64,000 nt of DNA, taken from NCBI RefSeq assembly GCF_009914755.1, contig NC_060934.1. One strand, written 5' to 3'. Of the stretch, positions 55,455-61,115 are shown one piece after another. Origin of the DNA: the human T2T-CHM13v2.0 reference genome, Homo sapiens. The notes beneath the pieces were generated by a model. It searched no databases. It worked only from the letters and a program-made list of their open reading frames with translations, and had not been told where the DNA came from. Each line of letters starts with the position of its first letter. The stretch's first letter is position 1. Position numbers and translations under genes: made by a program.

Positions 55455-55802
<348 letters not shown>

Positions 55803-56429: not shown

Positions 56430-57590
<1,161 letters not shown>

Positions 57591-57650
57591 AATCTAGGCA
57601 GACTCCTAAATTTGGGGTCTGATCAGCTAAGTGGATGGCAAAGCCAGTGA

Positions 57651-57944
<294 letters not shown>

Positions 57945-59115
57945 TAAGAAATTTCAGCTCCTATTTGAAAAACCTGTTTTTTAAAGCGAAATCAGTGCTG
58001 CCATTTATGGTTCAGTGATTTGGGAGAGAAAAACAAAACAGGAATATGCTTGTCAGCTCTGAGTGTCCTGCAAGTCCTTTCACGATCCAGTTCCTGTTTA
58101 CCTCCAAAATTATCCCTTTTCACTCGTCTCCTGACACTTTATATATGCCAGCCATACTAAACTTTTCTCAGAATTCCCAAATTCGCCCCTTTCTCTTTCA
58201 ATTCTTGCTGTCAGATTCTTCCCACTTCTCACTGTGCCTGGTTATCTCCACGTCATTTTTCACATGTCTGCTCCGACACTGCTGCCTTTTCAGGAGCTTG
58301 GCAGGCTGGTTAGTGCTCTAGCTTCTGAGTTCCCATCCGTGTGAACTTTTGCCTGCCTTCTTGCCTGTGTACTGCACTGGGGCTGTGAGCTCCTTGAGGG
58401 TGAGGGCTGTGTTTTGATCACTGTTAGTTCACTGCCTAGTTTTATGACTGGCTCTGCTACTTTCTTGTGACTCTGAGCAAGTTACTTATTACTTTGCCTC
58501 TCCGTTCATCATTGGTAAAATGGATATAGTAATTGTTCCCACCTCATAAGATAAAAATCAGTTAATATAAAACACCCAGAACAGAGTCTGACACATGGGA
58601 ACTACTTAATTCTTGTCCTTATAGCCATAGCATCAAGCAGTGAGCATCTACTTTGTGTTGGCAATAACTCAGATGACTGAATAAATAGCAATCCTGTAGA
58701 AGAACTGTTTGTACCTTACTTAGCATCAACACTGTGGATTAGTTCAAACAATTAGTATTAACAAAGAAATGACTAACAGATGTGTGTTTAGACACCAAGA
58801 ATAGCATGTCTGGTTATATGCCTATAACATTGTCACCTTGGTAGTACGGTCAGTATATAAAGGATTATCTTTAGAGAAAAAGATGGTTAAAGAAATGCCC
58901 TAAGAGAGAGTTATAGGGAAAACATTCTGTTTTAGGAGACATTATAAAGGGAAGCCAATGGGACAGGAAGAGTGAGTCATCTGCTTAGTAAGATGAGGGT
59001 GAAAGAATAGTAGAGGCGGCTGCTGTGAAAGATAATGTAAAGGGAACATGACATTTTCAAGAACGATGTGGGAGAGTTTTACAAAGTAGTAACAAGTTAA
59101 AGGCATGCAGCTTCA

Positions 59116-59206
59116 AGACACGAAGTCATCGATACCAACCAAAAAAAATAAGCCTAAGTGGTTCTTAAAGAAAAATCTCTTTGGTCTGGTGCCAGTTCTG
59201 GAAAAC
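59116..59206 (+). pseudogene. Degenerate copy of the 5' part of GSTO1 exon 3
   Basis: Aligns to 57711-57800 with 9 substitutions and 1 inserted A; frameshift reaches TAA after RHEVIDTNQKK. Confidence 0.9.
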
Positions 59207-59210
59207 TTTT

Positions 59211-59316
59211 TTTAGTATGGCTGGAATATAAAGTGTCAGGAGAAGAGATAAAAGGGGTAACTTTGGAGAGGTAAACAGGAACTGGATCGTGAAAGGACTT
59301 GTAGGACACGTCAGAG
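59211..59316 (-). repeat. Inverted copy of GSTO1 intron 3 segment 58057-58161
   Basis: Reverse complement matches, e.g. gaggtaaacaggaactggatcgtgaaaggacttg is identical; roughly 85-90% overall. Confidence 0.9.
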
Positions 59317-60565
59317 AAAATGAGCTTTAAAAGTAAAGCTTTTAGACATGAAGCTTTACTTTCATGCATAAAGCTACTACTTTAAAAAGTAGTCACAAGA
59401 GATTCATTGTACTATCTAGAAAGAAAATGAGATTTAAAAGTAATGCTGAAGATGCCCACCTTTACTTCCCTGCTTGGGTTTTAAAGGAGAGGTGGCTTTA
59501 TGTACATATGACCCTGCTCTCCTGGCCACAGCCCATCAGAACAGAAATGTACCCCACCCCACACACCTGGGCCAGTTATCTTCTCTCCTGGGAACTTGGA
59601 AATGAGACACAGAACTAAGACAGTAAAGGTTAGGACAGTAAAGACAACTAAGCGTTGGGGCTCAAATAATGTTAATTAGAGGCTAGAAAAACCAAAGCCA
59701 CTTAAGAAATAAATTTTTAGAGGAGCAAGAATTAAAAACATTGCAAAGGGACTGAAGTATGCAAAGTAATATGGAGCAGAAATGTGAGGAAAAACAGACG
59801 AAAGACCAGGCAGACCCAGGTGGAAATGTGGATGAAAGGGCTGCCTGAAAGCCTTCAGTCCCAGTGAAGGCAGGCTGAACTGATGTGGATGGGATTTCAT
59901 GGGATTCTATATTTTTACAAGTGCCTGTTTACTTAAACTAGGATGAGTGGACTTCTGCGTCTTGCAATAAAATGATACCAAAGACCAAAGTATTAAAACA
60001 CATAAACACCATCACGAGCATTAAAGCATCTGATGCTACACCCATCAAGTCTTTAGGTAGTCGGTCCCTTTTGAACAGTCTCCTGGTGTCCTCCCCAACA
60101 AAGAAATCAGAAAAATTTTCTTCCCTAGCTCTTTGCAGTTGGGGCCAAGTTTTGTGACCTAGGCTCTTCCTGTCAGACACACACATAGAGTTCAAATCAG
60201 AAACGAGCAAGGTAAGGAAACAGGCTTGGTGGGATATCTGCTTAAGATATTCAGCTCTCCACTGGTTTTCCTGGTGAGAGCAGCGGCAGAGCTTCTGGGT
60301 TTCAGCAGTGTGGGTTACAAGATAAAATTCCAGAGTAGAAATGGCATCAGTGCCAGTGGTGTTAGCAGTTATCTCAGACTCTACTTTCTGGCAGCCTCAC
60401 AAACTGAAGCATCTGGTGCTCAGCTTGGACTGGCAGCAGTGAGTGCTTCCCATTAGGCCATTTCTCAGCATGAATTTGGGATGTTCTGTCTTAATTCCAA
60501 GCCTGTTTGTTCCGCCTCCCAATAATTCTATGAGCCACTCAGTCTCCTTTAAAGAAAGTTGTGTT

Positions 60566-61051
<486 letters not shown>

Positions 61052-61115
61052 TTATGTGAGGGGGCCGATACAGTTAGCCATAAACTGATAAACTAAGAAA
61101 TTATTCTCTGTCTAG

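What the first reader, a model, noticed from the sequence alone, without database searches (positions are those of the whole stretch)
59100..59446. Compound templated insertion in GSTO1 intron 3: exon-3 copy, inverted intron copy and fold-back scars
Seen in order: (a) 59116-59206, a direct ~89% copy of 57711-57800 (exon 3 with its AG); (b) 59211-59316, an inverted copy of 58057-58161; (c) 59315-59339 agaaaatgagctttaaaagtaaagc, repeated at 59422-59446; (d) short palindromes aaagtaaagctt..aagctttacttt and actactttaaaaagtagt. Known: serial copying of nearby templates in both orientations is the signature of template switching (FoSTeS/MMBIR) or polymerase-theta templated insertion. Inference: this is a fossil multi-switch repair event, and ~10% divergence suggests an anthropoid-age origin.
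Basis: partly seen in the sequence, partly recalled or inferred. Interest (0 to 1): 0.75.

Follow-up and report, generated by a model that had tools for sequence, protein, structure and literature searches.

The report
Fossil multi-template insertion in GSTO1 intron
An old DNA copying accident pasted a piece of GSTO1 exon 3, a flipped piece of the neighbouring intron and some small fold-back bits into intron 3; it is a neat but ordinary scar of a known mutation process, with no sign of function.

Summary
All four observations are real. 59111-59206 is a direct copy of 57706-57800, the intron-2 AG plus the first 88 nt of exon 3 (84/95 identical, E 5e-24). 59211-59316 is an inverted copy of intron DNA 58057-58161 (E 2e-27). 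Neither is a repeat family: in the whole T2T genome the intron piece occurs only at these two places.

New findings:
- The end of the exon copy matches, 10 of 11, the uncopied DNA just beyond the template of the inverted piece (P=0.003). This is the annealing footprint of a primed template switch, and it orders the copying: exon piece first, + strand nascent.
- A 19-nt duplication (59078-59096 / 59381-59399) brackets the block, so the insert is probably 59097-59380.
- The window's only perfect 12-bp hairpin lies inside the insert.

Best reading (0.7): one ancient microhomology-primed serial template switch of the MMBIR/FoSTeS class, now a dead neutral fossil. The exon copy has a frameshift and two stops.

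The single-event reading has marginal tension, because the exon copy looks more diverged than the inverted copy (p 0.02-0.04). The age (3.2-8.8% per lineage) allows an anthropoid origin but could not be tested, since no primate genomes were available.

Known kind, low-moderate interest.

The parts
57706..57800 (+). Template A: last 7 nt of intron 2 (with the AG at 57711-57712) plus the first 88 nt of GSTO1 exon 3
   Evidence: Exon start 57713 comes from the hub's gene table.
58057..58161 (-). Template B: unique intron-3 DNA, copied in reverse complement
   Evidence: The whole-genome search finds only itself and the inverted copy.
58162..58172 (-). Annealing site for the A-to-B switch. It is uncopied DNA just beyond template B. 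Its reverse complement, TTCTGAGAAAA, matches the 3' end of A, TTCTG-GAAAA, at 10 of 11 positions.
   Evidence: Alignment. Score 8, P=0.0028 against 20,000 random 14-mer pairs.
59078..59096 (+). Left copy of a 19-nt flanking duplication (17/19 identical to 59381-59399); probable pre-existing target sequence
   Evidence: family D6. 0 of 300 shuffles reach the score. 58 of 3000 real-sequence placements reach it.
59097..59110 (+). 14 nt of unassigned filler. It holds AGGCATG, identical to 57711-57717 at the head of template A, so it may be an abortive first copy.
   Evidence: Read directly. A shared 7-mer arises in 678 of 20,000 shuffles, which is marginal.
59111..59206 (+). A': direct copy of template A, a dead exon-3 fragment
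   Evidence: In the exon-3 frame it has a +1 insertion and two stops (compare). 8 of 9 exon substitutions are derived in the copy, judged against the chr3 processed copy and GSTO2.
59207..59210 (+). Four extra T between A' and B'. They are either untemplated or a slipped extension of the TTT that begins B'.
59211..59316 (+). B': inverted copy of template B
59315..59367 (+). c1: direct copy of 59422-59473. The core of 26 nt is 92% identical. It shares AG (59315-59316) with the end of B'.
59323..59375 (.). Nested quasi-palindrome. It has a perfect 12-bp stem (59330-59341/59351-59362) plus an outer 7-bp stem (59323-59329/59369-59375). The matching stretch in c2 has only an imperfect inverted repeat.
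   Evidence: The comparison with c2 was read.
59376..59393 (.). Second palindrome with 8-nt arms. Its left arm abuts and overlaps the right flank duplicate.
   Evidence: 88.9% of 18, E 5.8, not significant on its own.
59381..59399 (+). Right copy of the 19-nt flanking duplication; inferred point of return to the original template
59422..59473 (+). c2: template of c1, 23 nt beyond the inferred return point

Best explanation
A single ancient germline event inserted about 284 nt (59097-59380) into GSTO1 intron 3. It worked by synthesis-dependent serial template switching of the MMBIR/FoSTeS class.

Inferred sequence of steps, with the growing strand having the sense of the + strand:
1. The strand left its template after 59096.
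2. It copied 95 nt from 1.4 kb behind: the intron-2 AG plus the first 88 nt of exon 3.
3. Its 3' end, TTCTGGAAAA, annealed to the nearly complementary stretch at 58162-58172 on the other strand. From there it copied 105 nt of intron 3 backwards, giving the inverted piece.
4. It copied about 26-53 nt from just ahead (59422-59473).
5. It made short snap-back copies of its own product, which are the hairpins.
6. It re-annealed 19 nt behind its point of departure, leaving the 19-nt flanking duplication.

Shown: the copies, their unique templates, the junction homeology, the flank duplication and the hairpins. Inferred: that all of this happened in one event, the order of the steps after B', and the enzymes involved.

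The product is a neutral fossil. The exon copy cannot be spliced in usefully or translated.
For: - Copies at E 5e-24 and 2e-27 lie 4 nt apart, in opposite orientations.
- The whole-genome search of T2T-CHM13 gives 4 places for 59100-59450: itself, template B, template A and a chr3 processed GSTO1 copy at 85%. It gives 2 places for 57940-58330 and 1 place for 59310-59700. No repeat family is therefore involved.
- In 53.4-61.3 kb the only local repeats besides three Alu-sized pairs are A, B and c.
- The A-to-B junction has a 10/11 match between the copied end of A and the uncopied flank of template B, in register with the boundary. P=0.0028 against 20,000 random 14-mer pairs. The reverse-direction test, A beyond its end against the start of B, scores 3 (P=0.85). 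This fits priming by annealing and fixes the direction.
- Microhomeology of 7-14 bp at 70-90% identity is reported at 19 of 57 join-points of replicative rearrangements (PMC6902434, passages read).
- Templated insertions from several nearby templates, flanked by microhomology, are the described MMBIR signature (PMC8421209, passages read).
- All four repeated pieces have similar identity: A 88%, B 89% with gaps, c core 92%, flank duplicate 89%.
- The only perfect 12-bp hairpin in the 64-kb window lies inside the insert. The DNA fold has z -4.98.
Against: - Only 1 of 5 junction tests is significant. Flank-to-A, B-to-c1, B-to-flank and the reverse test each score 3, P=0.85.
- Four T at 59207-59210 interrupt the expected A/B join.
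- The exon copy has 8-9 substitutions in 88 nt on one lineage. B and B' differ at 6 of 103 sites over two lineages. Under one age and one rate this gives binomial p 0.038-0.020. The tension fades if the 4 gap events in B are counted.
- A's differences crowd towards its 5' end (KS p=0.027).
- The small pieces are only moderately significant against real-sequence nulls: 58 of 3000 and 103 of 3000.
- No outgroup genome was available, so the empty site and the co-appearance of the segments are unseen.
Confidence: 0.7

Rival explanations
1. Stepwise origin. The exon-3 fragment A' was inserted first. The inverted intron copy B', with or without the small pieces, was added later at the same fragile spot. 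Alternatively a larger copy of 57706-58161 was later inverted and trimmed.
For: A' carries 8-9 derived substitutions in 88 nt on one lineage, against 6 of 103 for B/B' over two lineages (p 0.020-0.038). That would fit an older A'.
Against: - Two independent local copies would have to land 4 nt apart.
- The 10/11 homeology between the end of A and the uncopied flank of template B is expected if A's end primed B', not from a later unrelated event.
- No remnant of 57801-58056 lies in or near the insert.
- The rate gap can also come from error-prone synthesis at the first switch, from gene conversion between the B arms, or from chance.
Confidence: 0.15
2. Capture and ligation. Free DNA fragments from the neighbourhood were ligated by end joining into a staggered double-strand break. 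Fill-in of the 19-nt overhangs gave the flank duplication.
For: A 19-nt flanking duplication is present. Four unassigned T lie at the A'/B' join and 14 unassigned nt at the 5' end. 4 of 5 junction tests show no homology.
Against: Ligation does not explain why the DNA next to template B, which was not copied, matches the end of A at 10 of 11 positions. Both templates are intact in place, so the fragments would have had to come from a sister chromatid or homologue.
Confidence: 0.08
3. RNA-mediated. L1 reverse transcriptase copied unspliced GSTO1 or antisense RNA with twin priming or template jumps, leaving a target-site duplication.
For: A 19-nt duplication is in the size range of L1 target-site duplications (recalled). 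The inverted-plus-direct layout formally resembles twin priming. Twin priming is said to explain about 85% of inversions under 2 kb in L1 insertions (10.1101/2021.12.20.472354, listing abstract only).
Against: There is no poly(A) or poly(T) next to either flank duplicate (read). For sense RNA the order of the pieces is wrong for twin priming. The A-to-B homeology lies in genomic DNA beside the template. A third template (c2) and the snap-back hairpins are not features of L1 insertion.
Confidence: 0.04
4. Remnant of a tandem exon duplication that once served, or still serves, as an alternative exon 3.
For: Exon copies in neighbouring introns are common. More than 2,000 unannotated candidates are cited in PMC9013439 (passages read). 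The AG is retained at 59116-59117.
Against: - Only 88 of the 223 exon nt are copied.
- There is a +1 insertion and two stops in the exon-3 frame.
- 9 of the 20 nt before the AG are pyrimidines, against 15 of 20 at the true exon (read).
- No RefSeq exon lies here (hub table).
- GSTO1 is not named in the main text of PMC9013439: 0 occurrences.
Confidence: 0.03

Closest known systems
MMBIR/FoSTeS templated insertions at breakpoints of replicative rearrangements (MMB-TI; PMC8421209, PMC6902434)
   Same: Several nearby templates were used in series and in both orientations, and the templates were left intact. There is microhomeology at a join-point: 10/11, within the reported 7-14 bp at 70-90% identity. 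There are small unassigned insertions at the joins, and the strand returned close to its point of departure.
   Different: This is a fixed, tens-of-millions-of-years-old germline fossil with no associated copy-number change, not a disease or cancer junction. The templates lie 1.05-1.4 kb away, whereas the MMBSearch definition looks within 100 bp. Only one junction shows clear homeology.
Short-range template switch mutations, four-point model (PMC5453318, listing only; PMC7954356, passages)
   Same: An inverted copy of nearby sequence is created by a transient switch. A near-perfect inverted repeat becomes perfect: c1's 12-bp stem against the imperfect one in c2.
   Different: That model describes one excursion (two switches) within a fork and gives one inverted stretch. 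Here at least three templates were used, one in direct orientation, and over a kilobase.
Fold-back or snap-back templated inverted insertions at double-strand breaks (PMC11724301, listing abstract only) and polymerase-theta templated insertions (recalled)
   Same: The 3' part of the insert (59323-59393) consists of short inverted self-copies of 5-12 nt.
   Different: The two main segments are 96 and 106 nt and come from 1.05-1.4 kb away. That is far beyond the roughly 5-34 bp given for fold-back insertions.
Tandem exon duplications and unannotated exon copies in introns (PMC9013439)
   Same: A copy of an exon with its acceptor AG sits in the next intron.
   Different: The copy is partial (88 of 223 nt), frameshifted, lacks a pyrimidine tract and is fused to an inverted intron piece. 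It is not a usable exon.

Membership tests
MMBIR/FoSTeS-type templated insertion | Inserted segments have intact templates nearby | tested here: met
   The templates at 57706-57800, 58057-58161 and 59422-59473 are all present.
MMBIR/FoSTeS-type templated insertion | Two or more templates used in series, with direct and inverted orientations possible | tested here: met
   A' is direct, B' inverted and c1 direct, and they are contiguous within 4 nt.
MMBIR/FoSTeS-type templated insertion | Microhomology or microhomeology at the join-points | tested here: inconclusive
   The A-to-B junction has 10/11, P=0.0028. B' and c1 share a 2-nt AG. The other junction tests score 3, P=0.85.
MMBIR/FoSTeS-type templated insertion | All segments arise in one event | tested here: inconclusive
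   The identities are similar (88-92%). However, the A against B substitution test gives p 0.020-0.038. No outgroup genomes are held.
MMBIR/FoSTeS-type templated insertion | Dependence on replication or break-induced synthesis (POLD3, PIF1, translesion polymerases) | not testable with these tools
   This would need an experiment.
Polymerase-theta end-joining templated insertion | Short inserts (tens of nt or less) templated within tens of nt of the break (criterion recalled) | tested here: not met
   The main segments are 96 and 106 nt, copied from 1405 and about 1050 nt away. Only the 5-12-nt fold-back pieces fit.
Single four-point short-range template switch | One excursion that gives one inverted stretch which replaces or extends local sequence | tested here: not met
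   There are at least three templates, one of them in direct orientation.
L1-mediated retrocopy or twin priming | Poly(A) tail next to one target-site duplicate | tested here: not met
   No A-run or T-run lies at 59097 or 59380.
L1-mediated retrocopy or twin priming | Flanking target-site duplication | tested here: met
   A 19-nt duplicate at 17/19 identity is present. A return behind the point of departure explains it equally well.
Interspersed repeat family | Many copies across the genome | tested here: not met
   The searches found 4, 2 and 1 places in 3.1 Gb. The tool warns that counts are lower bounds and that very common words are skipped.
Functional tandemly duplicated exon | Whole exon with an open frame and both splice sites | tested here: not met
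   Only 88 of 223 nt are copied, with a frameshift and two stops. 9 of 20 nt upstream of the AG are pyrimidines.

The most novel reading that the evidence does not exclude
The event built a 105-bp inverted pair inside one intron. The predicted RNA duplex of 58057-58161 with 59211-59316 is -163 kcal/mol. In GSTO1 pre-mRNA this pair would loop out 1 kb, including the exon-3 decoy. On this reading the long intronic double-stranded RNA is retained because it hides the decoy acceptor, tunes excision of intron 3 or is edited by ADAR. A splicing QTL that shifts excision of GSTO1 introns 3 and 4 is reported (PMC12404487), but nothing links it to this site.
Probability: 0.05. Interest if true: 0.5.

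Novelty: new member of a known kind. Interest (0 to 1): 0.3.

Why it matters
This is a cleanly resolved, fixed example of a multi-template switch in the human germline. It has readable junctions, a direction of synthesis and a predicted empty site. Such fossils can calibrate how often complex replicative errors, rather than transposons, add sequence to introns. They also show how one such error can create a decoy exon and a long inverted repeat in a single step.

It does not change what is known about GSTO1 or about the mechanism. No functional consequence is shown.

Tried and rejected
- **Repeat-family origin: rejected.** Whole-genome searches found 4, 2 and 1 places.
- **Tandem array: rejected.** TRF gave 0 rows.
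- **GSTO2 or the chr3 processed copy as donor of A': rejected.** A' includes intron-2 bases and is closest to GSTO1. The GSTO2 exon is far more diverged (73% amino-acid identity).
- **Further templated pieces from 57600-58300 in the filler 59340-59421: none found.** 66 of 300 shuffles (+ strand) and 68 of 300 (- strand) reach the observed score.
- **58017-58044 against 59065-59092 (20/28): treated as chance.** 18 of 300 shuffles reach it.
- **Inverted matches of the filler to either flank: not significant.** 82 of 300 and 38 of 300 shuffles reach them.
- **Known RNA family in 57600-59700: none relevant.** The only hit is mir-326, E 0.12 and 23.8 bits against a gathering score of 66, at 58360-58455, outside the insert.
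- **Patchiness of B' (42 nt at 98%): not significant.** KS p=0.33.
- **Literature:** a search for 'GSTO1' plus 'intron 3' found 9 papers, 8 listed, none about this structure by title. I read passages of one only. Supplements were not examined.
Full report
**What is there**

I read 57600-59600 and searched it for repeats. I then ran a sensitive BLASTN of 59000-59600 against the whole window.

Two strong local matches stand out:
- 59111-59206 is a direct copy of 57706-57800, 87.5% over 96 columns, E 4.9e-24.
- 59211-59316 is the reverse complement of 58057-58161, 88.9% over 108 columns, E 1.8e-27.

Counted exactly, A/A' has 84 of 95 identical bases plus one 1-nt insertion. B/B' has 97 of 103 identical bases plus four gap events.

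By the hub's gene table, exon 3 starts at 57713. Template A is therefore the last 7 nt of intron 2, including the AG, plus the first 88 of the exon's 223 nt. Because intron bases are included, genomic DNA or unspliced RNA was the template, not mRNA.

The only correction is that homology (a) begins 5 nt earlier than stated.

**Not a repeat family, not an array**

The window's own assembly (3.1 Gb) could be searched.
- 59100-59450 has 4 places: itself, template B (89%), template A (89%) and a chr3 locus at 85% that matches only the exon part. I recall that locus as the processed pseudogene GSTO3P; no call gave that name.
- 57940-58330 has 2 places: itself and the inverted copy.
- 59310-59700 has 1 place.

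The tool warns that its counts are lower bounds, so a very old and highly diverged repeat cannot be fully excluded. Nothing, however, rivals the local 89% match.

TRF finds no tandem array. In a self-comparison of 53.4-61.3 kb, the only repeats besides three Alu-sized pairs are A, B and c.

**Junctions**

Aligning each copy with 25-nt flanks showed the following. The 3' end of A, TTCTG-GAAAA followed by C, matches the reverse complement of 58162-58172, TTCTGAGAAAA followed by G. That stretch is the DNA immediately beyond template B, and it was not copied.

I tested five junction hypotheses with 14-mers against 20,000 random 14-mer pairs from 52-64 kb.
- This junction scores 8, P=0.0028.
- The other four each score 3, P=0.85. 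They are flank-to-A, B-to-c1, B-to-flank, and the reverse-direction test of A's continuation against the start of B.

A match between a copied end and an uncopied template flank is what primer annealing leaves. It also fixes the direction: the nascent strand had + sense and copied A before B.

Imperfect join-point matches of this kind are described as microhomeology, 7-14 bp at 70-90% identity, and are found at 19 of 57 join-points. They are regarded as a signature of replicative template switching (PMC6902434, passages read).

Four extra T (59207-59210) sit at the join. They are either untemplated or a slipped extension of the TTT that begins B'. B' and c1 overlap by AG.

**Boundaries and the small pieces**

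A 19-nt stretch, 59078-59096, lies 15 nt before A'. It recurs at 59381-59399 with 17 of 19 bases identical.
- 0 of 300 dinucleotide shuffles reach this score.
- 58 of 3000 placements of the same geometry elsewhere in the real window do. That null is conservative because it includes Alus and simple repeats.

I read this as a flanking duplication. The insert would then be 59097-59380, and the empty site would join 59096 to 59400.

On this reading c1 (59315-59367) is a third templated piece, copied from c2 (59422-59473), which lies 23 nt past the return point. For c1/c2, 0 of 300 shuffles and 103 of 3000 real placements reach the score.

The 3' part of the insert is a nested quasi-palindrome, 59323-59375, followed by a second palindrome, 59376-59393.
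- Folded as DNA, 59310-59400 gives -18.2 kcal/mol, z -4.98, with 0 of 200 shuffles as good.
- Its perfect 12-bp stem is the only one in the 64-kb window.
- The corresponding stretch of c2 has only an imperfect inverted repeat (read). That is the pattern described for short template switches, which convert near-perfect inverted repeats into perfect ones (PMC7954356, passage).

The 14 nt at 59097-59110 are unassigned. They hold AGGCATG, identical to the head of template A. This is marginal: 678 of 20,000 shuffles share a 7-mer.

The four repeated pieces have similar identities, 88%, 89%, 92% and 89%.

**One event? How old?**

I aligned A and A' with the chr3 processed copy and the GSTO2 exon (loci, alignment). 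8 of the 9 exon substitutions are derived in A', and position 57713 is ambiguous. A' has therefore taken about 9-10% change on one lineage. B and B' differ at only 6 of 103 sites over two lineages.

- If age and rate were equal, the exon's share of substitutions would be 0.30. It is 0.57-0.60, binomial p 0.038-0.020. The earlier version, which included the 7 intron sites, gave p 0.033.
- The differences in A' also crowd into its first 46 columns, 10 of 12, KS p=0.027.
- B' shows no such crowding (p=0.33).

This is a marginal tension, and it fades if B's four gap events are counted. It could mean any of four things: an older A', error-prone synthesis just after the first switch, gene conversion between the B arms, or chance. 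I cannot tell which.

The joint estimate is 5.5% substitutions per lineage, 95% 3.2-8.8%. I recall human-lineage neutral branch lengths of about 3% to the catarrhine ancestor, 5-6% to the anthropoid ancestor and 9-10% to the primate ancestor. These figures come from no call.

**What it does**

Nothing shows function.
- In the exon-3 frame A' reads HEVIDTNQKK, then a stop, one residue and a second stop. The true exon reads [14 protein letters not shown]....
- Only residues 8-30 of the exon-3 translation still match the copy.
- 9 of the 20 nt before its AG are pyrimidines, against 15 of 20 at the true acceptor.
- No RefSeq exon lies there (hub table).
- Rfam finds nothing in the insert.

The two B arms could form a roughly 105-bp RNA duplex of -163 kcal/mol within intron 3. 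This is a consequence worth noting. It is not evidence of a role.

**Mechanism and rivals**

The best reading is one synthesis-dependent, microhomology-primed chain of template switches (confidence 0.7). Segment sizes of about 100 nt and distances of 1.05-1.4 kb point to the MMBIR/FoSTeS class (PMC8421209, passages) rather than polymerase-theta joining. Typical theta insert sizes are recalled. The terminal snap-back pieces resemble the fold-back insertions of about 5-34 bp reported at breaks (PMC11724301, listing abstract only).

| Rival | Confidence |
|---|---|
| Stepwise events at one site | 0.15 |
| Ligation of captured fragments at a staggered break | 0.08 |
| L1-mediated copying of unspliced RNA (no poly(A); wrong order of pieces for sense RNA) | 0.04 |
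| Decayed or alternative duplicated exon | 0.03 |

**Novelty**

This is a known kind of mutation in a new place. I found no description of it. The search for GSTO1 plus 'intron 3' gave 9 papers, none on this by title. GSTO1 has 0 occurrences in the main text of the tandem-exon-duplication survey PMC9013439. Supplements were not read. The searches were narrow, so this is not proof of absence.

Interest is low to moderate. It is a tidy textbook-grade fossil with a testable predicted empty site.

Noticed in passing
L006 (G000 chr3:133571639-133571860, matches exon 3): The chr3 processed GSTO1 copy matches the exon-3 peptide at 91% with no stop. It sits in an open frame of 283 aa, longer than I would expect for a dead pseudogene. 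I recall the name GSTO3P for it; no call gave that name.
   Followed up: no
window 59111-59156 compared with 59157-59206: 10 of the 12 differences between A' and its template lie in the first 46 alignment columns, next to the first junction (KS p=0.027). This may be mutagenic synthesis right after the first switch, or chance.
   Followed up: partly
window 59268-59309 / 58063-58104: A 42-nt stretch of the inverted pair is 98% complementary, while the neighbouring 43 nt are 88%. This is not significant as clustering (KS p=0.33), but gene conversion between the arms is not excluded.
   Followed up: partly
window about 58330-58600: This stretch looks to me like an old MIR-type SINE. That is recognition from memory, not from a call. 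Rfam gives a weak sub-threshold mir-326 match at 58360-58455, E 0.12.
   Followed up: no
GSTO1 introns 3 and 4 (window 57936-61115 and beyond): PMC12404487 (passages) reports that rs34521730 is a splicing QTL. It increases excision of intron 3 and decreases excision of intron 4 in more than 40 GTEx tissues, and it colocalises with a blood arsenic-metabolite signal. The SNP's position relative to the insert was not given in the passages read.
   Followed up: no
window 55480-55778, 56731-57013, 60566-60875: Three Alu-sized repeats match one another at 67-74% identity, in mixed orientation, around exon 3 and in intron 3. Two of them coincide with stretches the hub lists as masked.
   Followed up: no
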